Source: a virus (taxonomy: Duplodnaviria > Caudoviricetes). Taken from it: a DNA stretch of 64,000 nt. A model generated the notes under the pieces. It did no database searches. It worked only from the letters and a program-made list of their open reading frames with translations, and was not told the origin of the DNA. The position numbers were made by a program, and so were the translations under genes. The stretch covers positions 32,001-96,000 of the IMG/VR virus record IMGVR_UViG_3300009031_000221; one strand, written 5' to 3'. Positions 1-11,998 of this stretch are shown one piece after another (the first letter of the stretch is position 1; each line of letters opens with the position of its first letter).

Positions 1-3000
1 TCCCTTGCCGCTGTGCTTGCGGCATAGGACAAAGTTGTTACCGTTGATGAAGTCCCGGGCAAAACCAAATACCGTGCAAACTACAACGAATTGAAAGTCC
101 TCAAACGCATGCGGGGACGTTCCATATTGAAGCGCCCTTGTCAAGTCCAGAACATTCGATGGGACGATATAGGTATGGTCACCCGTTTGTTGCGGCCCTC
201 CCAGAGGAGACGTTATATCCTGCGCTCCATCCCGAAGGATGAACAAGGTTTGGCTATCCACGTCCTCTCGTAGGAGGTTCGGAGCAGCATCATTGTCCGC
301 GCCCCAACGATTGTTGACATCGATGGTACGCCCGCCCTTGGTCACGAAGTCCCGGTAGTCATACACCCCAATGAGGCGTGCCACACCGTAGTAAGGGGGC
401 AACTGAATACCCTTAAGTCCACGACCGAAATCCGATGAGTTCACTGCAGCCAAACTGTCAATGACATTCTGAGCATACGGGACAACATTGTTGATACTAG
501 TGGTCTTGCGTGCCGCAATGTAGGGCTGATTGTTCGTGCCAACAGTGGTCGTACCGTGGTGTGCATATGTTGCCAAACCCGTCACAAACAACATATTCTT
601 GACTTGGTTTCCGCCAGTCGGGTTGTCTTCCCCACCAATGACATTGAACACAGGTCGCGTCACATCTTCCCTATCCAGGAACAAGTGATTGATACCAGGC
701 ATGAAGGGCTGGGGGGATTCCCCTATGTACTTGTAGTATGGAATATCCTGCCTGCCGAAGCGAGGCATGAATTCGTAAGGAACCGCAAAGCCCATCTTCT
801 TGCCGTCCGCGGGCGTCCCTGTAAATATTTGATTGCAGTCCTTGGCCCCACCATCCGTATATGTATACGGACCCATAAGAGATTGCGGCAAGAAACCCGT
901 GAAATCCGTAGCATCCAAAGTCATATCCCGGCTTCGGAATGGCCGGAAAATGATAGTCTTGCTACCACGGTCTACGAACAACTCGTGTTCGCGGTCTTGC
1001 TCCGTGAACCCGACAACGTTACCCCCATAGTTAGGGGCGAACGGTGCGTGCCAACCGAGACCGGGCAAACGATTCCACAACTGGACATGATTTGCATTCC
1101 AGAACATTTCGCCGGCGGGGCCAGGGAATGTCGGGTCTACCGCAATGGGGCTCTGCCGTAGGTAGGGCCCGTCAGAAGGGACGCTGCCGACACGGGCAAA
1201 ACGTACCAATTCATCTGCCACACGTGCCGTTGCCCCATGTCCCGGATGGTACATGAAGGTCGTGTTGAGGATCATCTTGTTCGGGACACCTGACGCAGGT
1301 AGAGATAGGTCATATCCATCAACGGCACCGAATCCCAAGTATTCTTTCTTCCACGGATGCTCCGTCAATCCGGCTACGTCCGTCAGGACAACAGCTACAT
1401 CAGCCCAACGGCTAGGGTTGTATACCGACAAATCCTCGGAATGGGTGTATTGCGATCGAAATTCAATCGTGACAGCCCCACCAGAAGCCGAATTGAAACC
1501 CCCCGTCGTAAATCCAGGACTCAATGCCTGAACTACAATACCTGTGGATATAGGGGCATTCTTATTTGTATAACCTGCGGTCATACCCGCCCCGATAACC
1601 TTGAATGCTCCGTTGTTATTCTGGGCCCCTGCGGCATCGTCCCCATATAGAACAACATAGACTTCCGATGATGCCCCCGTGCTATCCCTACCCCCATCTG
1701 TCAACATCCCGTATAGGGTCTTGAGGTCGTGGAACAAGGGATTGGTAATCAGGGTCGGATCATCCTGGAAATTACCCGCGATATCCTTGCTGAACCAATT
1801 AACATTATCAAAATCGACGCCGACATCGATATATCCAATAGCATTAGGGATATCTACGTCGAACAACTTCGTCGCAAGAATATTCGTCATCCGCAGGCTC
1901 GTGTGCAGGATGCTGCCAAGGACAACGAATGGGCGTTCGAAGTTGGTCTCCCGCCAAGGATACATCGGCCCAACGTGACGGGCGGCATCAATAGCTGATA
2001 GTCCCGGAGGCGCCGCTTCTAATCCACGTTGCTGCACAAAACGCAACGATACAGGATTCTGATTACCATTGGCGGGATCCACAATGGGGTATCCCGTCTT
2101 CCAGTACTCCTTGGGGGTCACAAGGCGAACCCCACGAGTACCAGAATCCTTGAATGTGCCACGAACACCCTGATTGCCGAACTCGCCGCCTGTAAACAGA
2201 AGAATACTCGAACCATCGGTCCAGTTTGTCCCGCCTACGTCATTCATGAATCCTGATGGGTGGAAGTCCGGGCCTACATCCCAAGTCACGTTCACGTCAA
2301 ATGGATCTGTAGTTATCCCAACCGTACCCTGATCCTGTGTAGCCTCATTGTCACACATGATTGTTACATCAGTCTGCAACGCTGCTGCGTCTGACCACAC
2401 CGTACGAATACCATCGGGCCCATCTACTCGAGTGGTGTAATTCGGAGTCGCAATAGCACTGCCAGCCAACAACGAATCAACCTCATGGATAACGGGTCCA
2501 ATGGTCGTGCCCTTGGATTCCTGCTTCCATGCAGACTTGAGCGTGCCCTTTGTCAATGCAGCTACGTTATGTGCCAATAGACGATTGTAATCCCAATCCT
2601 GGGCATTGATGGCATGACGGAGATCCAACACGTCCTGACGGGCAATCTCGTCCGCAAACAAACCATCGGGACGGTTGTTGTAGAACTTGATGGGTGCCCC
2701 TAGGAGATGACCTGCTGCGGCAGTACCAAATCTACCACGCCCGCCAGCGGGGATTGTGATATCCCCCGTGTTAGTATCCACAGCACTGACACCAACAATT
2801 TCATTGTCAATGACCAGGAACACATGAGACAAATCCGCCTGCATATAAGGGTCATCCAAACCAGATGCACCTAATAGCAATGGGTCTGTATGGATTACCA
2901 AATCCGTTGACAACATAATGCTTGTCAATAGCGGAGTCTGGAGTTCACGTGACGTAGGGTTCGGAGCATGTGTTGCCATCGGCATACGGTCGAATGAACC

Positions 3001-3903
3001 ATTGTGCGTTGGATTGCCCCCACCATGTTGAACGGCACTGTAGTCATTCGACCCACGGCGGAAGATGGCACAAACAGGAATGGCATATACATAGCCATCT
3101 ACCGTGCCGAATGAATTGTCTGGGTCTCCGTTGCCCGCACGCCACAGAGAAGGATCCCCAAGCTCCGTCCGCATATTCTCAAATGCGCCGAGTAACGCCA
3201 CGGGGCTTGCGAATGTACCCTGCCCATAGATGTAGGGATCTCCCAAACCATCGGGATAGACATTCAATGTTACGGTAGACCCATTGCCTACACCACCACC
3301 ATGAACACGAAGACGGTACTGAACCTGAATCCGTGCCGTAGTGTCATAACCAATGGTGGGATCCTCAAGGTCATCGTCAATATTCGTCCCGCCAAACAAA
3401 ACATTGCCATACTTGAAAATCTTCGTAGCCTCAGGCTTGTTTGCGGTAGACGGGTTTGCATCTACCCGAGTCTGCCATGCCTCTAGGAACACATAGTCAA
3501 TCCGGGTGTCAGATTCTGGAGGTGCCATGAGGCTAATGACGTTGGACAAGTCATCGATCTGCGTTCCGGCAATAGGTAGAACCCAACCGTTGACATTCGC
3601 CCAAACTACAGGCTGCGTTTCAGGAGATTCCTGCATTCCCGTTGGCGTACGAGGGTTCCCCAGACGAAAACGATTAGCCCAGTTTGGATTGAACTGGAAG
3701 TCTACATCAGCACGAGTCGGATCCATAAAGAAACCAGACGGCACCATGGTACGAACCACTTGCCGCAGGCTCTCCCAAGCCTCCAAACTCATTAGGTTTA
3801 ACTCTGAGTCCAAAGGCGGCTTGCCTTTCTGCCATACCACGGCAGAAAACTGCCGTGCGAAAGCATCCATGGGACGGGAAACACCAGGTCCGAAATCTAC
3901 CAT
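1..3903 (-). CDS. Large virion structural protein (fibre/baseplate adaptor, DUF6519-like N-terminal motif); 3'-partial, at least 1301 aa; paralogue of 15718..19212
   Basis: Not in the ORF track, as expected for a frame with no stop inside the window. ATG at 3903 with GAGG upstream; translates MVDFGPGVSRPMDAFARQFSAVVWQKGKPPLDSELNL...RIDYVFLEAW...ARIQVQYRLRV...TVDGYVYAIPVCAIFRR...RPDGLFADEIARQDVLDLRH; the frame is still open at base 1 (...ARDFINGNNFVLCRKHSGKG). Confidence 0.9.
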   Translation of the reverse strand, partial: MVDFGPGVSRPMDAFARQFSAVVWQKGKPPLDSELNLMSLEAWESLRQVVRTMVPSGFFMDPTRADVDFQFNPNWANRFRLGNPRTPTGMQESPETQPVVWANVNGWVLPIAGTQIDDLSNVISLMAPPESDTRIDYVFLEAWQTRVDANPSTANKPEATKIFKYGNVLFGGTNIDDDLEDPTIGYDTTARIQVQYRLRVHGGGVGNGSTVTLNVYPDGLGDPYIYGQGTFASPVALLGAFENMRTELGDPSLWRAGNGDPDNSFGTVDGYVYAIPVCAIFRRGSNDYSAVQHGGGNPTHNGSFDRMPMATHAPNPTSRELQTPLLTSIMLSTDLVIHTDPLLLGASGLDDPYMQADLSHVFLVIDNEIVGVSAVDTNTGDITIPAGGRGRFGTAAAGHLLGAPIKFYNNRPDGLFADEIARQDVLDLRHAINAQDWDYNRLLAHNVAALTKGTLKSAWKQESKGTTIGPVIHEVDSLLAGSAIATPNYTTRVDGPDGIRTVWSDAAALQTDVTIMCDNEATQDQGTVGITTDPFDVNVTWDVGPDFHPSGFMNDVGGTNWTDGSSILLFTGGEFGNQGVRGTFKDSGTRGVRLVTPKEYWKTGYPIVDPANGNQNPVSLRFVQQRGLEAAPPGLSAIDAARHVGPMYPWRETNFERPFVVLGSILHTSLRMTNILATKLFDVDIPNAIGYIDVGVDFDNVNWFSKDIAGNFQDDPTLITNPLFHDLKTLYGMLTDGGRDSTGASSEVYVVLYGDDAAGAQNNNGAFKVIGAGMTAGYTNKNAPISTGIVVQALSPGFTTGGFNSASGGAVTIEFRSQYTHSEDLSVYNPSRWADVAVVLTDVAGLTEHPWKKEYLGFGAVDGYDLSLPASGVPNKMILNTTFMYHPGHGATARVADELVRFARVGSVPSDGPYLRQSPIAVDPTFPGPAGEMFWNANHVQLWNRLPGLGWHAPFAPNYGGNVVGFTEQDREHELFVDRGSKTIIFRPFRSRDMTLDATDFTGFLPQSLMGPYTYTDGGAKDCNQIFTGTPADGKKMGFAVPYEFMPRFGRQDIPYYKYIGESPQPFMPGINHLFLDREDVTRPVFNVIGGEDNPTGGNQVKNMLFVTGLATYAHHGTTTVGTNNQPYIAARKTTSINNVVPYAQNVIDSLAAVNSSDFGRGLKGIQLPPYYGVARLIGVYDYRDFVTKGGRTIDVNNRWGADNDAAPNLLREDVDSQTLFILRDGAQDITSPLGGPQQTGDHTYIVPSNVLDLTRALQYGTSPHAFEDFQFVVVCTVFGFARDFINGNNFVLCRKHSGKG

Positions 3904-3919
3904 GTTCGCCTCAGTTCAA

Positions 3920-4756
3920 TCAGAACAACACTGCGTAGGTTGCGATATACCGCTTGCTCGCGGAGGTGTTCAAGAAAGCCACCCTAATCTTCGTTGTCTT
4001 CGAGCAGAATGCTATGGACTCCAATAGTCCCGCTTGGCACCATGTCGTTCCATTATCAGGAGACAAATAGGCAGAGAACCCACTAGGTTCCTGATCGCAT
4101 TCCTTGATCGTCCTAATCGCAGGGTCATTGGTCAGGTTATGAGCGACATCATTGGAGATATCAAACTCGTAAAGCTTCCAATACATAACGAACTCATCGG
4201 CGCCAACCGGGTCACCTGAAAATGGATCCAGTGTGTATGCCCCGATGTCAATCTCCTTGGTGATAAGAAGACCAGGGTGATTCGGGAGGCTCGTCGGATG
4301 AACAGGATCCAAAGTTGGATTGATCGGGAGCAATGCTGTATGCGTTGGCATTTGCCCAGGCAAGGGGTTCAGAATCGAACGACCCGTTTGCAACCGTGGA
4401 GAGTAAATGTGAATGTTCGGAGGATCGGAGAACGTATCGCGGAATGTCGCCGTGAAATCAAGTTCCTCAACATGCGTGGAGGTCAACAACGGGTTAAAAT
4501 AGACGTTGCCGAACATCGGATACTGGGCTAACAGGTAGGCATACGAGATGCTGGATACATCGCCACCATCGCAATCCCCTAGACCATCCAATACGTAGGA
4601 GCTACTATCGATTGGGAACTCCGCGCCTTTGACTACAGGTATCGCGTACTTCCCATTAATGGGAACGGCGCCATCAGTACCAGTCGTGGGGGTGCGTTCG
4701 ACCTGAACGATCTTAGGGTCATTAGGATGGCTTTTAAGGTCTATGAGGATCCGCAT
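3920..4756 (-). CDS. Hypothetical virion structural protein (278 aa)
   Basis: Long ORF co-oriented with the tail genes, GAGG upstream, 16 nt from the next gene; C-terminus is beta-strand-like (FSAYLSPDNGTTW...TKIRVAFLN). Confidence 0.75.
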   Translation of the reverse strand: MRILIDLKSHPNDPKIVQVERTPTTGTDGAVPINGKYAIPVVKGAEFPIDSSSYVLDGLGDCDGGDVSSISYAYLLAQYPMFGNVYFNPLLTSTHVEELDFTATFRDTFSDPPNIHIYSPRLQTGRSILNPLPGQMPTHTALLPINPTLDPVHPTSLPNHPGLLITKEIDIGAYTLDPFSGDPVGADEFVMYWKLYEFDISNDVAHNLTNDPAIRTIKECDQEPSGFSAYLSPDNGTTWCQAGLLESIAFCSKTTKIRVAFLNTSASKRYIATYAVLF

Positions 4757-4798
4757 GTCTTATGATACCTCTCGTACAACGTACTCATTCACGGGGGA

Positions 4799-4805
4799 CT
4801 ATAGG
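4799..4805 (-). promoter_or_regulatory. Candidate late-promoter element CCTATAG upstream of 3920..4756
   Basis: The same heptamer occurs at 32247-32254, and related TAT-core elements occur in the other minus-strand intergenic gaps. Confidence 0.35.
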
Positions 4806-4848
4806 ATACCTAACGCCGTTCATTATACCGAAAGTTACGTTTTACAGG

Positions 4849-4876
4849 CTTACTATTCGGAAGTTCAGCGTAGATG
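4849..4876 (+). promoter_or_regulatory. Repeated bipartite promoter-like motif, copy 1: CTTACT-N11-CAGCGTAGAT
   Basis: CTTACT 4849-4854, CAGCGTAGAT 4866-4875; identical boxes and spacing in copies 2 and 3; 37 nt upstream of ATG 4912. Confidence 0.8.
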
Positions 4877-4911
4877 TTATGTGGGATGCCTAGCACCCCC
4901 AGGAGATGTCA

Positions 4912-5631
4912 ATGAAGTTCCTCAAAACCATGACCCTGGCGCTGGCCCTTTCCCTTCCCGTGCAGTCACATGCGGCGGAATCGAAGCCCGTGATCGTCGT
5001 GGCGGAAGACTTGGCACAGCAGGCCAAAGAACGCTTCAAGGCCGGGGAATTCGAAGTTGCTGCCAAGATGTTCATGAACGCTTACGCCAAGAGCCATGCC
5101 CCGGCGATGGTGTTCAACGCCGCGAGAGCCTACGAGAATGCGGGGAAGAACGGCGATGCCGCAAGCCTGTTCCGCCTCTACGTCAGCCTGTCGGATGATA
5201 CGGATGGCATGATTGAAGCCCGTCAGCATCTCGCCAAGTTGAACACGCCCTCCCCGGTCATCGTTCAGCCCCCGCAGGCACGCCCGACCCCGCGTCCAGT
5301 GGCCCCGATGGTTCCTGTTGCCGTTACCCCCGCTCCGTCGCATACGGCAGCGTGGGCGGTCACTGGAGGCGCCGCAGCGGCAGTGTTGAGCGGTGTTACC
5401 CTCATCGGCATTGCCAGTGCAGACTCGAATCAGGCCAATGCGGATTACCGTCGCACGGGGGACTTGCAGGCATACAGGAACGCCTATAGTACGTCGCAAA
5501 CCGAATGGTGGGCCGGAGTTGCCATCACGGGTGCTGGCGCGGTCCTAGGTGGCGTTTCCGTGTACATGTGGAACAAGCCCGTCACCGTCACGCCCATGGG
5601 CAAGGGAATCGCCTTCGGCGGATCTTTCTAG
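4912..5631 (+). CDS. Exported TPR-like protein with Pro-rich linker and two C-terminal hydrophobic segments (myxobacterial-type envelope protein), 239 aa
   Basis: AGGAG 6 nt before ATG 4912; signal peptide MKFLKTMTLALALSLPVQSHA; TPR-like AKERFKAGEFEVAAKMFMNAYAKSHAPAMVFNAARAYENAGKNGDAASLFRLYV; hydrophobic segments AAWAVTGGAAAAVLSGVTLIGIA and WWAGVAITGAGAVLGGVSVYMW; ends GKGIAFGGSF. Confidence 0.8.
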   Translation: MKFLKTMTLALALSLPVQSHAAESKPVIVVAEDLAQQAKERFKAGEFEVAAKMFMNAYAKSHAPAMVFNAARAYENAGKNGDAASLFRLYVSLSDDTDGMIEARQHLAKLNTPSPVIVQPPQARPTPRPVAPMVPVAVTPAPSHTAAWAVTGGAAAAVLSGVTLIGIASADSNQANADYRRTGDLQAYRNAYSTSQTEWWAGVAITGAGAVLGGVSVYMWNKPVTVTPMGKGIAFGGSF

Positions 5632-5641
5632 GGATTGATGA

Positions 5642-5669
5642 CTTACTTTGGGAGAGTTCAGCGTAGATG
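5642..5669 (+). promoter_or_regulatory. Repeated bipartite promoter-like motif, copy 2
   Basis: CTTACT 5642-5647, CAGCGTAGAT 5659-5668; begins 10 nt after the upstream stop codon. Confidence 0.8.
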
Positions 5670-5693
5670 ATGTGTACGCTGGTTGTCACATCA
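5668..5693. repeat. Perfect 7-bp inverted repeat TGATGTG-N12-CACATCA (operator-like site or 5' hairpin)
   Basis: Read directly; overlaps the 3' end of promoter copy 2. Confidence 0.55.
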
Positions 5694-5742
5694 GCGGGAT
5701 CCACATCGAAGCCGAAAAGTAGTCCCTGGGAGGGGCGTACCT

Positions 5743-6042
5743 ATGCCAAATTTTCAGCGAGTGGTGGTTGGTCTTCTGGTTCTCGTCATCATCAACCTGT
5801 TCGGGCTGCTGGTGACGGGGCATCAGGTCAATGTCAACCTGAAGAAACTGGTCGCACATAGCCCCGCACCGGAGGAACATGCCAAAAAGGGGATCGACGA
5901 GCAGATCCTGGATCTGTGGGCGGAGCAGAACGACATCCCCCTTCCACAACATGTATCAGCGGATACGATGTCCCAAAAGGAAGTGGAGGACATATTCAAC
6001 AAGCGGGGGATCGTCCCGGCATTGCCGATTTCTACGAAATGA
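5743..6042 (+). CDS. Small single-pass membrane protein, 99 aa
   Basis: GGGAGGGG 7 nt before ATG 5743 (the track start at 5683 has no RBS); N-terminal hydrophobic helix VVVGLLVLVIINLFGLLV. Confidence 0.75.
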   Translation: MPNFQRVVVGLLVLVIINLFGLLVTGHQVNVNLKKLVAHSPAPEEHAKKGIDEQILDLWAEQNDIPLPQHVSADTMSQKEVEDIFNKRGIVPALPISTK

Positions 6043-6074
6043 ACGGTTCGTATCATAAATACAGCTAAGCGTGA

Positions 6075-6101
6075 CTTACTTTTCCCATCGACAGCGTAGA
6101 T
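6075..6101 (+). promoter_or_regulatory. Repeated bipartite promoter-like motif, copy 3
   Basis: CTTACT 6075-6080, CAGCGTAGAT 6092-6101; 40 nt upstream of ATG 6141. Confidence 0.8.
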
Positions 6102-6109
6102 AGAAGGTA

Positions 6110-6126
6110 GGGCGCCTGAGGTGCCC
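6110..6126 (+). promoter_or_regulatory. 5' leader stem-loop GGGCGCC-TGA-GGTGCCC
   Basis: 7-bp stem with one G-U pair, lying between promoter copy 3 and the AAGGA RBS. Confidence 0.5.
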
Positions 6127-6140
6127 ACAAGGAACCTTCG

Positions 6141-6746
6141 ATGAACTGCCTCAAACTCGCAATGTTGCTCCTGGCCCTGACGATGCCCGCGTGCCTCGCG
6201 GAACGTCTGGATGACCCCTGCGATGCCCCCGCCAGCACCCGCCTGAAGGCGAACGGCGATGGCACGTTCCACGACAAGCTCCTGAACATCGATTGTTCGT
6301 TCTTCAAGGCGGAAGGTCACGGCAAGCTATGCTTGCCCGTGTGGACACACCAAAATGGCACCAATGGATTCGGCAACTCCGATTTCCCTGAGGCCACTGC
6401 TACGGTGAACCACCAATCATCGGATTGTCAGTCAAATCAGATATTTTGGGCCAATCAGGGGCCTTTCGGGGACTTCCCCAAGTATGGCTTCACGATGGCG
6501 TCGGCGGATTCCGTATCCGCGGTCTTCAACCTTCGTGACCCTGACCCGACAACCGTTACCAGCACAGACCCGAAGACCGGAAAAGCAACGGGAATCAGCG
6601 ATTACTATTCGACGGCAGATTGCATTGGACCGAAGACCGCAAAGGATCAACAAAACGGATTCTTCATGATTGCTGATGGACAAGCCTCCATCCCTGCGTG
6701 CCCCTACATGACAGGCCTGGGATTGTTTGCGGGCATGCCTCAGTAG
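6141..6746 (+). CDS. Putative Cys-rich lipoprotein, 201 aa
   Basis: AAGGA RBS; N-terminal MNCLKLAMLLLALTMPA-C (imperfect lipobox); motif STRLKA...FHDKLLNIDCSFFKAEGHGKLCLP; Cys-rich mature part. Confidence 0.7.
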   Translation: MNCLKLAMLLLALTMPACLAERLDDPCDAPASTRLKANGDGTFHDKLLNIDCSFFKAEGHGKLCLPVWTHQNGTNGFGNSDFPEATATVNHQSSDCQSNQIFWANQGPFGDFPKYGFTMASADSVSAVFNLRDPDPTTVTSTDPKTGKATGISDYYSTADCIGPKTAKDQQNGFFMIADGQASIPACPYMTGLGLFAGMPQ

Positions 6747-6748
6747 GA

Positions 6749-9700
6749 TTACACGTTGCCGTTGTTCGCGTCGACATTGCCTGCGACAATTCCCGCCGCG
6801 AATACATTCTGTGCCACATTACCAACCACAACAACCGAATTTACCTTTGCTGCCAAAGTATCCGTGTTGGTGATTCCCGCGGCACCCAGAATCATATTGC
6901 CGGTAAGGACTACGGGATCGACCTGAGCCGCCGCAGCCGATCCGAGGACAATACTATTGGTAACCATGTTGCCCGTGATTACGGCATGGGTAAGGTTTTC
7001 ACCAAAAGTAATAAATCCCGCAATGTTGTTAAAAATCATGGTAGAACTGCTCAGGATGCTGATAGTGTTTCCTGTCGGGAGATTGTTCCCCGCTACCTGT
7101 GTTCCCCCGCTAGCCGCATTCACCGTGATTCCCCCAAACATCTGATTACCAGTAATCATGTTGTTTGTCCCTGTGACATCAATAGCGCCGGTCGTGTTGC
7201 TTGCGATGACGTTTTCTGCCCCCACAACCGTAACCGTACCGTTATTTCCCGCAGAACAAGTACTGTTACCTGTGAAGTTCAATTTACTGGCATAGGCAAC
7301 CAATCCCGTTGCGCTTTGCATTTGGTTACCTGTCACCGTCCCATAGATTGCGACATGTCCCGCATCCCCAATAATGAGTCCAGGACTTCCTATTGTATTC
7401 CCCGTAACTGTGAAGTAGCTGCTTAGTGTTCCTCTACCTAGAATCAGGGATGCGGCAAACGTGTTGTCTCCAATGGTGCCGAAGTTCGCATCCAGAATCT
7501 CGAATACCCCCGCAATCCGATTTCCTGTGATCTCGTAAGGACCCCCAATGTTGATCTTGTCTGCAGTCCCCGCACCGGTACTGATGCTAGTAATGACATT
7601 GTTGGCGATGATTGGACGCAAGCTTGCAACGGCACCGGCACTGAGTCCAACGTAATCAGTAAGTGTCGCGATGGTGTTCCCTATCAGTTTGCAATCATCA
7701 TGGAAGCATAGACCTGAACCAAACGTGTTGCCCTCAACGGTATTCCCGTCCCATACGTAACCATTCGCAAACGTATTGCCTACGATAGTGTTATTTGAGC
7801 CTCCCGTTGGCAAGTTAGTTACAACATCATAGCCCGCTGCCAATATGTAGGCGTAATTCCCTGCAATGTAGCAATTAGTGCCATCAACCTTCATCACATT
7901 GCACACATTGCTTTGAACAGACGCGCCATAACCGAAAACGTAGATGTGCCAAGGGTTTGACACATTTACAGTGACCGTATTGTGGTGGACGCTAACCGTA
8001 GGAGGGCTGCCAAGAACAGGATAGCCTACGTGAATACCATCATCGTAGTTTCCAACAACGGATACATCCATATCTACTGAGTTGTGGCCAACGGTAGTAT
8101 TGAGGTTTTCCTTGGTGAAAACCAGAATGCCATACTTGAACCCCCACAACATGTCCACTAACCCGGTGTGGATCACGCTCAGATTGTTGTTGTTGATTTT
8201 CACACCACCCGCAGCAATGAGTCCCGTGTGCAGGGTGCCATTGATGTAGTTCCCATCAATAATGCCCGCGCCCCCACCAACCCAAATACCATTACCGAAT
8301 CCAGTAATGTAATTGTTCCGAATGGTCACATTCGAAATCTTGTCATTCAAGTAGAAGGTAGCCGTGTCATCATGAAGGATCTTGATTCCTACCGTACCTG
8401 TTCTACCTCCCAATACCGAAGTCCCAAACAAGTTCCCTTCGATAATCGTGTTTGCTATGGGTGATCCAATCTGAACGCAATGAATGCCGTCCCCACGCAA
8501 TGAAGTAGCATGGTTGCTTGTGATCCTAGATTCCGTTACCACAAATGCCTGCGCCTTGAGGAAATTGTAAACATAGCCATTTGCACGGCAGTTGTCGATG
8601 ATCACATTAGATGAGGGCCCGCTGGAAGTAATGAAAAGAGAATTGGTGGCTACCATGGGATCTGCCCCCAGGAATCGGAATGCCAAATCACGAAATACAA
8701 GATCCGAACGACCATTCAGATCAATCAGATCCTTGGTTGCGTCGTCCCACGAAATTTCCGTTGTATTGATTCCGGATGCCGAAAGAGGCATACCCTCAAT
8801 GACCAATCCATTGGTCTTGATCTCAATAGGCAGGACGGTTTCCAATGTACGCCCTATTACTCGAATCCGAACCTGCTTATAGGCGGGGCCTCCTGATTCG
8901 GGAGCCATCATTTCGCTAGCGTATCCGACAGCTTCCCCTAGTGTCTTGAAATGAGCATGCCCATTGTTGAACGAAATCCAATCTACATTGGTCCCACCGA
9001 TTTCTCCTACCGTAATTTCCAACCGCTTGTCCATGTCCCGAATAGGATTCTGGAGATTCATCACGGTAGCAACACCGCCCGATACCACAACCTTCGCGAT
9101 AAGGATATCCTCAGGGTGAGGAAGAGGGAATGCATTAGCCCCATCAATGAACCATGACGTGTAATAACACGCAGGGCATGTTGTGCCGTCATTGTGTTCA
9201 AAATAGAAGTAGAAAATGTTAGGATCCACCGCAGAAGGGATCTGAATCGTTACCTGCGGAGTCAGCATACGTTGACCCTGCATCAAAATTGTTGCCGGAT
9301 CGATCGTGATATCGTAATGAGTCCCTGCAATAAGCGCACTTGCAGTCACTCGAGTTGACTTGAGATGCCATGATGAGAACATGTCATCGAGGTTCTTCTG
9401 AAGGTTCAGTGTCTGCGTACCCTTGGCACGCACGGTTACCGATCCATCCGTGTTAGCAACAACATCGGCATCATCGAATCGAACTGAAGAGGAGCGCTTC
9501 GCTGAACCATAGGTCGTATCGAATTGGTAATTGACACCGGCTACACCCGTGAGGTCATTCGGGGTAACAACCTCACGGCGGAATACCACAACATGAGGAT
9601 TGGCAGCATCAATAGTGAAAGAATCTACAGGGCCCCCAGCCTGGACGCCGCCCCCATAAAGCTCACCCAATATTGTGAAATCAATACCTGTAACAGGGTC

Positions 9701-11998
9701 TACATAGAGTGCTACTTTGCGGTATCCAAATAGGGATCCCCGATATCCAACCCCGCCAACGACAGCCGGATCCCCATCGGAATAATCCCCTTGAATCAAC
9801 TCAAAGAACCCCGATCCAGGGATACTTACAGTCCAATCCCCTTCAAGTGCAATAGTCTGAGGATTGGACATATCCACGACATGTTGACTAGTTATTACCT
9901 GAGGCATCAGAACACTGACAGGAATCACAATCCGATTACTGAAAGCGTCTACGGTATCCTTGGTCGCAGGCGTGTCCCCACAGTAGGCTCCGTCAAGCAT
10001 CGATGGATGCCCCCCAGTCACACGGATATTGGCCCCAAGCTGTCCTTCCTCCATGGAGTAAGGAACACAACATGCGAACAAAACCATCTCACCACGGGGA
10101 TTATCCGTTGACGTAAACACCGTTGGATCAGAAGGATAAAGTGGGCCATCCTTGATGGGATGCGAGAACCGAACCAATCCATTAGAGTAATCTACCTCTA
10201 CGTACTGCTTCTCGGCATTCTTGGATGAATCAAGCATCAACTCGTTTGATGTAACGGGGTTATCCCAATCAGGAACAAGAATTGGGATGGCTGGCCCGCC
10301 TAGAGGGTTCGGTTCAGCACCGACCTTCGCAGGGAATAGAACCATACGGAATCCGAGATCCATCAAGCTACCAGGATTTGCATAGCCCGCAGTTCCGCTC
10401 TTCGCCGTATCAAATACTGCCCGATCCGCCCGACCAGGATTCAACCCACTGGACTTCATCGAACGCTCAACCCAACGGGGATCGATGATGTTGGTCAACC
10501 TTGCGGATTGAATCTTGTCGATGTCGGCATACCGTGTAGACCACAAATCCGTCACAGGATCATGGACAGTGGCCTCCACAAAGATGCCCTTACCGACAGC
10601 AGGGGCGGATGTATGGATCGAGTAATATTCCCCAGATCCCGTCCTTGAGAAACCAAGGGCGGGATTATTCTCTTCCATACGACGCAGAACCCAATAATTC
10701 AAAGGCCCGGCGACGGACGCCGTAACCTCAAACCATCCCATCAAAGAGGATTGATTGATTTCAAAGTCATTGGGCCATCGGAATGCCGCACCCCCAACAG
10801 TTTGAACTGATGTGATATGCAGGATTTTCCCTACCAAGCTTCCCGTGAATACGGGATCCGGGGCATCCATCAATATGAAAGTGCCCGCGGGACTTTCAGC
10901 CACAGGCCATGCAGGATCCAATAACCCTGTTACAGGATCAATGCCATGCAAACGACCCTTCCAATTTCCTACGGGACGCGGAATAGGCAACTTGGGGCCG
11001 TAAGCGTAATCAAAGGTGCTGCCCGTAAGCAATGGGAGATTAATTTGGTCTTCTGTCCAGTTAGGGATAGTAGTCCACACATTGTAAGGGTAGCGTTCGT
11101 CTGTACCCAATGCTCGACGAGGGGGCACAACAGCAAATGCCTGCGACTCTTTGACCCCGCCACTCGATGATCCAGGCACGGCAACTAGACGGGTTGCCTG
11201 CGGTTGTAGGATTGTGATGGCACGAATGACGGGATTCGCAGGAATCGTGAAATAATTTGCCAAACGCTTGTTTGGATCCAGTATGATGACATCAACACGA
11301 ACTGCAATGATACGGAAAATCTCATATTTAGCGTTTGGATCTACCGGGGTCAATCCGGTATATCCCACAATAGGACCAGGAACAGAATTCTCCAATACGC
11401 ATCCGTCACCAATACCACCGACAACAGGGCCGGGCAGATTTCCTTCGCCTCCGGTCTGAGATATGACCATGTAAAGGCCACCAGGATAATCCGTTGCGCT
11501 AATAACCCCATTGGGAATCCCGTACAAATCTGTAACGGTATCACCTGGAGTCACTTGGTTCAGTTGCAATTCATCTCCGCCACCAGGGCTGGTAACCGTC
11601 CACTGCCAAGAACCCGTGTAACTATTCTTGAGCGTGGGGCCAACCACGGAGAACGAAATCGGATGTCCTACGAAAGAACCACCCTTGGAACCGAAACGAT
11701 TGGTGCCCCAGTTGTAGGGGGCGAAATTGATTTCAGGGTGACCAGGTTGACCGATCTTGCTAATCTTGTACTGTGAAGGATTTGGAACGTTCGCATCATC
11801 CGAACGGGACTCATTATAAGACCCTGTATCCATTTGATGGGATGCAGCCCATGATCCAGCCATACCACGAATGACTTCAGCAGCTTGAGACACACGTGCT
11901 GCCGGAACAGTTTGCCACTTGGACAAAGCTTCCTGCCACGAGTCCCTCGATGATGTCGTTGCGGTGATAGGATCGGCACCGAGATTCTGATTCGCCAT
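6749..11998 (-). CDS. Tailspike/receptor-binding protein with C-terminal right-handed beta-helix (pectin-lyase-like), 1749 aa
   Basis: The C-terminal ~700 aa consist of Asn/Gly/Ile/Val-rich repeats (IxxNxI, VxGNxF, IxGNxI), preceded by ITVG...HFKTLGEAV, typical of beta-helix entry; lies in the fibre region. Confidence 0.8.
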   Translation of the reverse strand: MANQNLGADPITATTSSRDSWQEALSKWQTVPAARVSQAAEVIRGMAGSWAASHQMDTGSYNESRSDDANVPNPSQYKISKIGQPGHPEINFAPYNWGTNRFGSKGGSFVGHPISFSVVGPTLKNSYTGSWQWTVTSPGGGDELQLNQVTPGDTVTDLYGIPNGVISATDYPGGLYMVISQTGGEGNLPGPVVGGIGDGCVLENSVPGPIVGYTGLTPVDPNAKYEIFRIIAVRVDVIILDPNKRLANYFTIPANPVIRAITILQPQATRLVAVPGSSSGGVKESQAFAVVPPRRALGTDERYPYNVWTTIPNWTEDQINLPLLTGSTFDYAYGPKLPIPRPVGNWKGRLHGIDPVTGLLDPAWPVAESPAGTFILMDAPDPVFTGSLVGKILHITSVQTVGGAAFRWPNDFEINQSSLMGWFEVTASVAGPLNYWVLRRMEENNPALGFSRTGSGEYYSIHTSAPAVGKGIFVEATVHDPVTDLWSTRYADIDKIQSARLTNIIDPRWVERSMKSSGLNPGRADRAVFDTAKSGTAGYANPGSLMDLGFRMVLFPAKVGAEPNPLGGPAIPILVPDWDNPVTSNELMLDSSKNAEKQYVEVDYSNGLVRFSHPIKDGPLYPSDPTVFTSTDNPRGEMVLFACCVPYSMEEGQLGANIRVTGGHPSMLDGAYCGDTPATKDTVDAFSNRIVIPVSVLMPQVITSQHVVDMSNPQTIALEGDWTVSIPGSGFFELIQGDYSDGDPAVVGGVGYRGSLFGYRKVALYVDPVTGIDFTILGELYGGGVQAGGPVDSFTIDAANPHVVVFRREVVTPNDLTGVAGVNYQFDTTYGSAKRSSSVRFDDADVVANTDGSVTVRAKGTQTLNLQKNLDDMFSSWHLKSTRVTASALIAGTHYDITIDPATILMQGQRMLTPQVTIQIPSAVDPNIFYFYFEHNDGTTCPACYYTSWFIDGANAFPLPHPEDILIAKVVVSGGVATVMNLQNPIRDMDKRLEITVGEIGGTNVDWISFNNGHAHFKTLGEAVGYASEMMAPESGGPAYKQVRIRVIGRTLETVLPIEIKTNGLVIEGMPLSASGINTTEISWDDATKDLIDLNGRSDLVFRDLAFRFLGADPMVATNSLFITSSGPSSNVIIDNCRANGYVYNFLKAQAFVVTESRITSNHATSLRGDGIHCVQIGSPIANTIIEGNLFGTSVLGGRTGTVGIKILHDDTATFYLNDKISNVTIRNNYITGFGNGIWVGGGAGIIDGNYINGTLHTGLIAAGGVKINNNNLSVIHTGLVDMLWGFKYGILVFTKENLNTTVGHNSVDMDVSVVGNYDDGIHVGYPVLGSPPTVSVHHNTVTVNVSNPWHIYVFGYGASVQSNVCNVMKVDGTNCYIAGNYAYILAAGYDVVTNLPTGGSNNTIVGNTFANGYVWDGNTVEGNTFGSGLCFHDDCKLIGNTIATLTDYVGLSAGAVASLRPIIANNVITSISTGAGTADKINIGGPYEITGNRIAGVFEILDANFGTIGDNTFAASLILGRGTLSSYFTVTGNTIGSPGLIIGDAGHVAIYGTVTGNQMQSATGLVAYASKLNFTGNSTCSAGNNGTVTVVGAENVIASNTTGAIDVTGTNNMITGNQMFGGITVNAASGGTQVAGNNLPTGNTISILSSSTMIFNNIAGFITFGENLTHAVITGNMVTNSIVLGSAAAAQVDPVVLTGNMILGAAGITNTDTLAAKVNSVVVVGNVAQNVFAAGIVAGNVDANNGNV

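What the first reader, a model, noticed from the sequence alone, without database searches (positions are those of the whole stretch)
4849..6101. Three exactly spaced copies of CTTACT-N11-CAGCGTAGAT, one before each island gene
Seen in sequence: 16 invariant bases with an invariant 11-nt spacer at 4849, 5642 and 6075; copies 2 and 3 extend to TGACTTACTTT, and copies 1 and 2 share AGTTCAGCGTAGATG. I did not see the motif before any minus-strand gene. It does not match TTGACA/TATAAT. Inference: a promoter class for a phage-encoded or alternative host sigma factor, or a regulator site, that defines a regulon.
Basis: partly seen in the sequence, partly recalled or inferred. Interest (0 to 1): 0.8.

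Follow-up and report, generated by a model that had tools for sequence, protein, structure and literature searches.

The report
Huge phage's own promoter class
The three repeated motifs are real copies of a promoter found about 130 times in a 536-kb groundwater phage, in front of its non-structural genes and tRNAs; it is most likely read by the phage's own ECF-type sigma factor, a familiar phage strategy used here on a very large scale.

Summary
Observation confirmed. CTTACT-N11-CAGCGTAGAT occurs exactly three times in the window (0.12 expected), once before each of three plus-strand ORFan genes.

The window lies in a 536,053-bp phage genome with 69 tRNA/tmRNA genes. The motif is one sub-form of a genome-wide element, G[A/G]CTTACTT[T/C]-N10-nnGCGTAGAT:
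- 131 position-matrix hits; spacing strictly fixed (127 copies at N15, 0-3 at other spacings).
- 128/131 intergenic and co-oriented with the next gene or tRNA.
- Median 39 nt from TAGAT to the start codon.
- Absent from the baseplate module that surrounds the island.

Two related phages carry sister motifs with identical geometry, in front of orthologous genes (Fisher p = 5e-10).

No phage RNA polymerase was detected. One conserved 308-aa protein has an ECF-like sigma2 + sigma4 architecture, and its gene sits behind a TTGAC-N17-TA element in all three phages. Best reading: host sigma-70 transcribes the phage sigma gene, and that sigma then reads this promoter class. No RNA data exist, so transcription starts are unverified.

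This is a new member of a known kind; the scan has met phage ECF-sigma promoter arrays before on other DNA.

In passing: the same promoter precedes integrase genes on retron and restriction-modification islands of one Myxococcales genome assembled from a metagenome (MAG).

The parts
4846..4875 (+). Promoter copy 1 (AGGCTTACTATTC...CAGCGTAGAT): upstream box CTTACT 4849-4854, downstream box GCGTAGAT 4868-4875
   Evidence: Exact pattern match; matrix score 32.6 bits
4881..4899 (+). Predicted start region (YRYR-GG, 6-8 nt after TAGAT) and short 5' hairpin GGGATGC-CTA-GCACCCC (4883-4899); inferred only
   Evidence: Position-specific Y/R pattern at +31..+36 in 101 copies; sequence read
4912..5631 (+). 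Island gene 1, 239 aa (241 aa from ATG 4906): signal peptide, TPR-like segment, Pro-rich linker, C-terminal membrane segment; ORFan
   Evidence: ORF list; TPR_16 E 5e-5, below Pfam cut-off; no PHROG; no paralogue; no homologue in relative G001
5639..5668 (+). Promoter copy 2 (TGACTTACTTTGG...CAGCGTAGAT)
   Evidence: 33.3 bits
5669..5707 (+). Leader hairpin after copy 2 (predicted -16.3 kcal/mol for the 45-nt stretch)
   Evidence: RNAfold
5743..6042 (+). Island gene 2, 99 aa, N-terminal membrane helix; ORFan
6072..6101 (+). Promoter copy 3 (TGACTTACTTTTCCCATCGACAGCGTAGAT); the same 27-mer, spacer included, occurs at four other places in the genome
   Evidence: 40.2 bits; identical 27-mers listed
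6110..6126 (+). 5' hairpin GGGCGCC-TGA-GGTGCCC, followed by an AAGGAAC ribosome-binding site
   Evidence: -18.1 kcal/mol for the 45-nt stretch
6141..6746 (+). Island gene 3, 201 aa, signal peptide (possible lipoprotein), Cys-rich; ORFan
3920..4756 (-). Conserved minus-strand gene on the left of the island (43% identical homologue in G001)
6749..11998 (-). 1749-aa minus-strand gene on the right of the island. Its G001 homologue directly abuts the homologue of 3920-4756, so the three plus-strand genes are an insertion
   Evidence: The same minus-strand cluster holds baseplate wedge (phrog_6, 1.4e-27) and baseplate proteins

Best explanation
The three sites are promoters of the phage's main non-structural promoter class. 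Host core RNA polymerase, carrying a phage-encoded ECF-like sigma factor (308 aa, genome 305,990-306,916, minus strand, outside the window), binds two boxes. The upstream box G[A/G]CTTACTT would be bound through sigma region 4. The downstream box GCGTAGAT, 15 nt after CTTAC, would be bound through sigma region 2. Transcription would start about 6-8 nt after TAGAT. Each site drives one small secreted or membrane ORFan gene of a 2-kb island inserted backwards into the baseplate/tail module. The sigma gene itself lies behind a sigma-70-like TTGAC-N17-TA element, which suggests a cascade: host sigma-70 (early), then phage sigma, then this class (middle-type genes, tRNAs, metabolic and accessory genes). 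Shown: the motif, its statistics, its placement and its conservation; presence and fold of the sigma-like protein. Inferred: that the motif is a promoter, that this protein reads it, the start site and the timing.
For: (1) 131 matrix hits in 536 kb against 1-5 in shuffles. 128 of 131 are intergenic. 128 of 131 have the next downstream feature co-oriented, and 108 of those 128 lie within 110 nt of it. The median distance to the start codon is 39 nt. Six copies precede tRNA genes. (2) Spacing is rigid: CTTAC-N15-CGTAG occurs 127 times, other spacings 0-3 times. (3) Genes behind the motif are not paralogues, so the similarity is not a by-product of gene duplication. (4) Relative G001 (435,804 bp, 213 shared ORFs) has GG[G/T]CTTAYYT...[CA]GAGTAGTCT with the same geometry: 60 hits against 15 in the control. 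13 of 20 orthologues of motif-preceded genes also carry the G001 version, against 8 of 162 for other genes; odds ratio 36, p = 4.6e-10. A third relative (L093) has four copies of GGGCTTA[C/G]...GCGTAGATC before genes, one of them rIIB. A change of box sequence across a whole genome, with placement kept, points to a factor that travels with the phage. (5) No beta, beta-prime or T7-type RNA polymerase domain was found in six-frame searches. (6) The 308-aa protein: TIGR02937 sigma70-ECF E 8e-6 across regions 2 to 4; the family profile hits PDB sigma-H 3mzy at E 7e-4 over 150 residues. In its AlphaFold model, residues 107-198 superpose on sigma-E/RpoE region 2 (Z 7.5-8.0, rmsd 2.4-3.7 over ~80) and residues 230-306 on region 4 (Z 6.5-7.5). 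Essentially every top hit is a sigma factor. The family has at least 1177 members, some named sigma-24 by JGI. Orthologues are 56% (L093) and 43% (G001) identical. (7) The downstream box contains CGT and the spacer is inflexible, as in ECF-type promoters (established knowledge). (8) TTGAC-N17-TA lies upstream of the sigma gene in all three phages. (9) The motif is absent from the baseplate module of the window.
Against: No transcription start or expression data exist: only DNA runs from groundwater hold this sequence. The sigma assignment is by elimination and co-occurrence. The sigma hits are below the curated cut-offs (25.5 bits against 42.9 for TIGR02937) and the fold Z-scores are middling (8 or less). 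More distant phages with a 36-40% identical orthologue (G002-G005) lack CTTAY-N16-GTAG. The co-variation follows overall phage phylogeny, so it is not specific to this protein. The upstream box lacks the AAC typical of ECF -35 elements. The sigma gene has no copy of the motif, so there is no autoregulation. Three to four copies of the motif occur in a Myxococcales MAG in which no orthologue of this sigma was found. That is compatible with a host-encoded reader.
Confidence: 0.6

Rival explanations
1. The sites are promoters, but they are read by a host-encoded alternative (ECF-type) sigma factor that the phage exploits.
For: The same extended motif occurs 3-4 times in one Myxococcales MAG (G006). 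No orthologue of the phage sigma family was found there. ECF sigmas are very numerous in Myxococcota (established knowledge).
Against: 0 of 36 other genomes of that order have the motif, and the MAG copies lie in low-GC integrative islands. So it is not a conserved host regulon. The box sequence differs genome-wide between related phages. Relying on a normally sequestered host stress sigma for about 130 promoters, tRNA arrays included, would be unusual.
Confidence: 0.15
2. The sites are activator-dependent promoters or operator sites. A phage DNA-binding protein would bind the upstream box and recruit host sigma-70 polymerase, in the way T4 MotA/AsiA act at middle promoters. Candidates are the 201-aa protein with only a sigma region-4 domain, or the 247-aa winged-helix protein.
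For: The phage encodes several HTH proteins, one with a strong region-4 domain alone (Sigma70_r4 2.5e-12). T4 middle promoters are likewise bipartite (established knowledge).
Against: The downstream box GCGTAGAT[A/G] does not fit TAnnnT: its sixth position is A or G in 80 of 101 copies. Both boxes are nearly invariant with no dyad symmetry. A full sigma2 + sigma4 protein is available.
Confidence: 0.1
3. The sites are promoters for a phage-encoded, highly diverged RNA polymerase that profile searches cannot see.
For: Jumbo phages of the phiKZ and AR9 type encode very diverged multisubunit polymerases (PMC5449584). About 87% of PHROG families have no known function, and most large ORFs here match nothing.
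Against: No match to RNA_pol_Rpb2_6, RNA_pol_Rpb1_2 or the T7-type family in six frames at E up to 1. The T7-type search also rang in none of the 14 control genomes, so it carries little weight. The bipartite -35/-10 layout with a rigid 15-nt spacer is the signature of sigma-dependent recognition.
Confidence: 0.05
4. The element is not a promoter but an RNA-level or DNA-level site: a processing site, a recombination or homing target, or the end of a mobile cassette.
For: Five copies share an identical 27-mer including the spacer. Many copies are followed by a hairpin. The island is an insertion. All three points are compatible with copying of cassettes.
Against: Strict orientation toward the downstream gene, a fixed distance to start codons, presence before tRNA arrays, and conservation before orthologues while the boxes change all fit transcription initiation. 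Cassette spread would not exclude promoter function. No Rfam family matches.
Confidence: 0.04

Closest known systems
Coliphage phiEco32 gp36 and Salmonella phage 7-11 sigma with their middle/late promoters (PMC4331800)
   Same: A phage-encoded ECF-family sigma redirects host core polymerase to a phage-private promoter class that can be found by motif search.
   Different: Those are podophages of about 77 kb with about a dozen promoters, driving middle and late (structural) genes. Here there are about 130 bipartite promoters in a 536-kb genome, they avoid the baseplate module, and they also drive tRNA arrays. The boxes are unrelated in sequence.
Bacillus phage SPO1 gp28 (middle) and gp33/34 (late) sigma cascade (PMC13401047)
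   Same: Early genes use host sigma-A and then phage sigmas take over. This parallels the TTGAC-N17-TA element before the sigma gene and the motif before other genes.
   Different: From my own knowledge, the SPO1 sigmas are not of the two-domain ECF type. Their promoters have different boxes, and the cascade is shown experimentally there but only inferred here.
Bacterial ECF (group 4) sigma promoters, e.g. E. coli sigma-E and B. subtilis sigma-W (TGAAAC-N16-CGTATA; from my own knowledge)
   Same: Two short boxes, CGT in the downstream box, a rigid spacer, and a reader made of sigma2 and sigma4 only. GACTTA-N16-CGTAGA aligns box for box with the sigma-W layout.
   Different: There is no AAC in the upstream box, no motif before the sigma gene itself, and no anti-sigma was identified. 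The protein has an extra conserved N-terminal domain of about 110 aa, and the copy number is far above any cellular ECF regulon.
Promoter-early stem-loop (PeSL) cassettes of T4-type phages (from my own knowledge, not checked in a paper here)
   Same: ORFan genes in plastic regions each carry their own promoter followed by a stem-loop. Near-identical promoter copies suggest shuffling by recombination.
   Different: T4 PeSL promoters are read by host sigma-70. Mobility of the cassettes was not tested here.
Earlier cases in this scan (e.g. e1-3669127, a 328-kb Bacteroidota phage with 58 ECF-type promoters)
   Same: A huge phage with its own ECF-like sigma and one repeated promoter before every one to three accessory genes.
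   Different: Different phage clade, different boxes, different sigma family. That note was not re-tested here.

Membership tests
ECF (group 4) sigma-dependent promoter | Two conserved boxes with a fixed spacer of about 16-17 nt between hexamers | tested here: met
   CTTAC-N15-CGTAG 127 copies against 0-3 at other spacings. Read as GACTTA-N16-CGTAGA.
ECF (group 4) sigma-dependent promoter | CGT-type downstream (-10) box | tested here: met
   GCGTAGAT is invariant or nearly so in 101 seed copies.
ECF (group 4) sigma-dependent promoter | AAC-containing upstream (-35) box | tested here: not met
   The upstream box is G[A/G]CTTACTT; there is no AAC.
ECF (group 4) sigma-dependent promoter | A cognate sigma made of sigma2 and sigma4 domains is encoded in the same genome | tested here: inconclusive
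   The 308-aa protein scores TIGR02937 E 8e-6 but below the cut-off, and PDB sigma-H E 7e-4. Both model domains superpose on ECF sigma2 and sigma4 at Z 6.5-8.0. All lines agree, but none is above a curated threshold.
ECF (group 4) sigma-dependent promoter | The sigma gene is autoregulated from its own promoter type and paired with an anti-sigma | tested here: not met
   There is no full motif upstream of the sigma gene in G000, G001 or L093; TTGAC-N17-TA is there instead. An anti-sigma was not searched for.
ECF (group 4) sigma-dependent promoter | Transcription starts 6-8 nt after the downstream box and depends on the sigma | not testable with these tools
   No RNA run holds this DNA.
Housekeeping sigma-70 promoter (TTGACA-N17-TATAAT) | Matches to both hexamers, with A at position 2 and T at position 6 of the -10 | tested here: not met
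   The consensus scan finds no such site at the three copies. TAGAT[A/G] lacks the final T.
Single-subunit (T7-like) RNA polymerase promoter | A contiguous conserved block of about 20 bp and a T7-type polymerase gene | tested here: inconclusive
   The motif is bipartite with a variable 10-nt spacer, which does not fit a contiguous block. PF00940 is absent, but that search rang in no control genome, so gene absence is weakly shown.
T4-type middle promoter (MotA box plus sigma-70 -10) | A TAnnnT -10 element with an activator box at -30 | tested here: not met
   There is no TAnnnT at the right distance. MotA or AsiA homologues were not searched for.

The most novel reading that the evidence does not exclude
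The promoter and its sigma form a private transcription code of one huge-phage clade. The code co-evolves: GCGTAGAT in this phage and L093 goes with loop residues D-P-A-K in sigma region 2, while GAGTAGTCT in G001 goes with D-S-R-K. Integrative defence islands in a Myxococcales host (retron II-A, type I restriction-modification, reverse transcriptases) have placed their integrase and excision genes under this phage code. They would then sense infection through the phage's own sigma factor and excise or fire in response.
Probability: 0.2. Interest if true: 0.75.

Novelty: new member of a known kind. Interest (0 to 1): 0.5.

Why it matters
The motif gives a nearly complete map of one transcription class (about 130 units) in an uncultured 536-kb phage. 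It separates accessory, metabolic and tRNA genes from the structural modules. It also marks the three ORFan envelope-protein genes as an independently transcribed insertion. The sigma/promoter pairs of this clade have strict geometry and diverged boxes, so they could be tested in a heterologous host as orthogonal expression parts. The occurrence of the same promoter on host defence islands offers both a host clue (Myxococcota) and a testable idea about how islands detect infection.

Tried and rejected
- RNA evidence: no RNA holder listed for window 3900-8900; only four groundwater DNA runs (possible source) and one small-share wetland run.
- Exact motif in IMG/VR: 34 contigs with a single match each, i.e. 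chance level.
- Phage polymerase domains: no hit for PF00562, PF00623 or PF00940.
A profile of 22 relatives hits only LexA-type winged helix in PDB, and no sigma Pfam family in any member. Rejected as a sigma.
- The 201-aa protein has sigma region 4 only and no region 2. The 378-aa protein has no significant hit.
- Rfam: nothing in window 3000-8000.
- Sigma-70 scan: no site at the copies.
- A loose pattern for a second motif ([CT]GGTAG-N7-9-TA[CT]) was not above shuffles. Only the strict TCGGTAG word is enriched.
- Downstream folding energy is only slightly below random 45-mers (-9.8 against -8.4). The hairpin is a positional feature of many copies, not of all.
- Distant relatives G002-G005: no CTTAY-N16-GTAG.
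- G006: no match to the sigma family profile. Its islands share no genes with G000 or L093.
- A first G006 pattern search had a miscounted spacer and gave nothing; it was corrected.
- Literature: no paper uses GCGTAGAT as a phage promoter; the hits are primers. The huge-phage paper mentions phage sigma-70 and AsiA only.

Full report
OBSERVATION. The pattern CTTACT-N11-CAGCGTAGAT matches at window 4849-4875, 5642-5668 and 6075-6101, all on the plus strand. Nothing else in the 64-kb window matches on either strand, even with three mismatches. Shuffles give 0.12 matches on average and never three. Each copy precedes one plus-strand ORF. Start codons are at 4912 (an in-frame ATG also lies at 4906), 5743 and 6141, which is 37, 75 and 40 nt after the last T of TAGAT.

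CONTEXT. The window is bases 32,001-96,000 of a single 536,053-bp virus record with 52% G+C. It has 69 tRNA/tmRNA genes. The only sequencing runs that hold it are groundwater metagenome DNA.

GENOME-WIDE PICTURE.
CTTACT-N15-GTAGAT occurs 101 times.
- An iterated position matrix finds 131 sites of at least 12 bits, against 1-5 hits of at least 8 bits in shuffled genomes.
- The spacing is rigid: CTTAC-N15-CGTAG occurs 127 times, any other spacing from N10 to N20 occurs 0-3 times.
- 128 of 131 sites are intergenic or at gene edges. For 128 of 131 the next downstream feature is on the same strand, and 108 of those 128 lie within 110 nt of it. The median distance to the start codon is 39 nt. Six sites precede tRNA genes.
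- Proteins behind the sites are not paralogues, and the three island proteins have no paralogue at all.
- Positions 31-36 after the first C show a Y-R-Y-R-G-G preference. Many copies are then followed by a short G+C-rich hairpin of the type GGGCAC...GTGCCC and an AAGGAA-type ribosome-binding site. This fits a start 6-8 nt after TAGAT, but it is inference.

THE ISLAND. The three genes encode a 239-aa protein (signal peptide, weak TPR match, Pro-rich linker, C-terminal membrane segment), a 99-aa membrane protein and a 201-aa secreted Cys-rich protein. None has a PHROG family. They are flanked by minus-strand genes belonging to a cluster that contains baseplate wedge and baseplate proteins.

In the related phage G001, the homologues of the two flanking genes (window 3920-4756 and 6749-11998) are adjacent, 9 nt apart. 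The three plus-strand genes are therefore an insertion into a structural module, each gene bringing its own promoter. The structural genes of the window carry no copy.

COMPARATIVE EVIDENCE. The exact motif is not multi-copy in any other IMG/VR contig.

G001 (435,804 bp, terminal repeats, 62% G+C) shares 213 of 653 ORFs with this phage. It has a sister motif, GG[G/T]CTTA[T/C][T/C]T...[CA]GAGTAGTCTAGG, with the same distance between CTTA and GTAG. There are 60 hits against 15 for the reversed control, and 54 at the canonical spacing against 0-4 at other spacings.

Among genes with an orthologue in G001, 13 of 20 that carry the motif here also carry the G001 version there. For genes without the motif the figure is 8 of 162 (odds ratio 36, Fisher p = 4.6e-10).

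A third relative is a 24.6-kb contig, L093, with 61% G+C. It has four copies of GGGCTTA[C/G]...GCGTAGATC before genes, including rIIB. So placement is conserved while the boxes change across whole genomes. That is what is expected of promoters that co-evolve with a factor carried by the phage. More distant phages (G002-G005) lack this motif family.

WHO READS IT. Six-frame searches find no beta, beta-prime or T7-type polymerase domain. The T7-type model also rang in no control genome, so that result is weak. Searches for sigma regions 2 and 4 give several weak places.

Only one ORF combines both regions: genome 305,990-306,916, 308 aa.
- TIGR02937 E 8e-6 over model positions 17-161 and PHROG 1740 'sigma factor'.
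- Sixteen relatives on phage contigs of up to 436 kb, and at least 1177 relatives in the large protein collection, some named sigma-24 by JGI.
- The alignment shows a conserved core resembling regions 2.1-2.4, with a conserved C-terminal helix-turn-helix.
- The family profile matches sigma-H 3mzy in PDB (E 7e-4, 150 residues).
- The AlphaFold model (pLDDT 71; over 85 in both domains) gives almost only sigma factors in Foldseek.
- In the second-look alignment, residues 107-198 fit sigma-E/RpoE region 2 (Z 7.5-8.0, rmsd 2.4-3.7, about 80 residues) and residues 230-306 fit region 4 (Z 6.5-7.5). These Z values are middling, and the sequence scores are under the curated cut-offs. I treat the assignment as well supported but not proven.

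A 201-aa protein has region 4 alone.

The sigma gene has no full copy of the motif upstream. In all three phages it has TTTC(C)TTGAC[T/A/G]-N17-TA..A., which looks like a host sigma-70 -35 box with a weak -10.

Orthologues from G000 and L093, which share GCGTAGAT, share the loop D-P-A-K in region 2 and a nearly identical region-4 helix. G001, with GAGTAGTCT, has D-S-R-K. With three phages this is only a lead.

MECHANISM PROPOSED. Host sigma-70 polymerase transcribes the sigma gene early. The phage sigma then directs core polymerase to about 130 promoters in front of tRNA arrays, metabolic and RNA-repair genes (as other first readers noted) and many small ORFans, including the three island genes. 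The structural modules use something else.

I put 0.9 on 'these are promoters' and about 0.6 on the full statement with this particular sigma. The rivals are a host alternative sigma, activator-dependent sigma-70 promoters, an undetected phage polymerase, and a non-promoter element. They are weighed in their own section.

COMPARISON WITH KNOWN SYSTEMS. The closest known are phage-encoded sigma systems: phiEco32 gp36 and phage 7-11 (PMC4331800) and the SPO1 cascade (PMC13401047). Bacterial ECF promoters are also close. The layout, the CGT box and the rigid spacer match the ECF type. The AAC box and autoregulation do not. No paper in the library reports this motif. This scan has already followed up several phage ECF-sigma promoter arrays on other DNA, so the kind is known. 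This is a new and very large member.

IN PASSING. A scan of 185,579 species genomes gives 78 stretches with a match, about what chance gives, except in one MAG. That is 'uncultured Myxococcales bacterium A14_bin-1730' (G006), which has three exact copies, or four with a looser pattern. None of 36 other genomes of its order has any.

The copies lie in islands of 59-60% G+C within a genome of 65-67%.
- One lies before a winged-helix protein, next to a type II-A retron (RT_II-A 8e-84, NDT_II-A 2e-45) and a type I restriction-modification system.
- One lies before an excisionase-like HTH and an integrase.
- One lies directly before another integrase, with an 811-aa reverse-transcriptase protein downstream.

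No orthologue of the phage sigma was found in G006, and its islands share no genes with the phages. The islands may be switched on by the phage's sigma, or a host factor may read the motif; I could not decide between these.

A second word, TCGGTAG followed after six bases by TAT, is enriched upstream of genes without the main motif (10 observed against 0.87 expected). It recurs in L093 and may mark another promoter class.

Noticed in passing
G006 (Myxococcales MAG) C15:8554-8580(+), C15:13074-13100(+), C29:8448-8474(-), C35:21660-21686(+); loci L175, L177, L178: The phage-type promoter occurs 3-4 times in one bacterial MAG, inside low-GC integrative islands. Two copies lie directly before integrase or excisionase-like genes. 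Cargo includes a type II-A retron, a type I R-M system and an 811-aa RT protein. No phage sigma orthologue was found there, and 36 other genomes of the order have no copy. This may be an infection-sensing island or satellite, and it hints at the host.
   Followed up: partly
genome 51955(-) = window 19955; also genome 115360, 189432, 201728, 449105, 488910, 508375; L093 about 16300(-): A second upstream word, TCGGTAG, followed after about 6 nt by TAT(A), is enriched before genes that lack the main motif (10 against 0.87 expected) and recurs in relative L093. It is a candidate second promoter class. A looser pattern was not above chance.
   Followed up: partly
window 4883-4899 and 6110-6126; about 40 other copies genome-wide: A short G+C-rich hairpin (GGGCAC...GTGCCC type) begins about 8 nt after TAGAT in many copies, followed by an AAGGAA-type ribosome-binding site. 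It would sit at the very 5' end of the transcripts, perhaps protecting the 5' end.
   Followed up: partly
genome 306917-307231 (L002 2074-2388); G001 about 159724-159900; L093 about 9150-9471: The sigma-like gene is preceded in all three phages by TTTC(C)TTGAC[T/A/G]-N17-TA..A., a sigma-70-like element. In this phage it overlaps a lone upstream box, GACTTACTTC, with no matching downstream box.
   Followed up: partly
window 6075-6101; genome 441941, 444325, 492483, 494694: Five promoters share an identical 27-mer including the 'variable' spacer (TTTCCCATCGA), in front of unrelated genes. Copy 1 has near-twins at genome 273578 and 493741. This suggests promoter cassettes are copied by recombination.
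   Followed up: partly
window 6744-6751: Island gene 3 and the convergent 1749-aa gene end 2 nt apart, and no terminator-like hairpin was found there. Transcripts from the two strands should run into each other.
   Followed up: no
window 4822-4830 (minus strand): TCGGTATAAT, with a perfect TATAAT, lies 65 nt upstream of the minus-strand gene 3920-4756. The island has cut that gene off from its former upstream neighbour, so this may be its replacement promoter.
   Followed up: no
genome 161786-162391(-) = L003:1174-1779: A 201-aa protein has a strong sigma region-4 domain (2.5e-12) near its N terminus and a second HTH, but no region 2. It is not a sigma by architecture and may be a transcription factor.
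   Followed up: partly
genome 365569-366312(-) = L001:1015-1758: The 247-aa protein suggested earlier as an ECF-like sigma has 42 distant relatives. Its profile shows only a LexA-type winged helix at the C terminus.
   Followed up: yes
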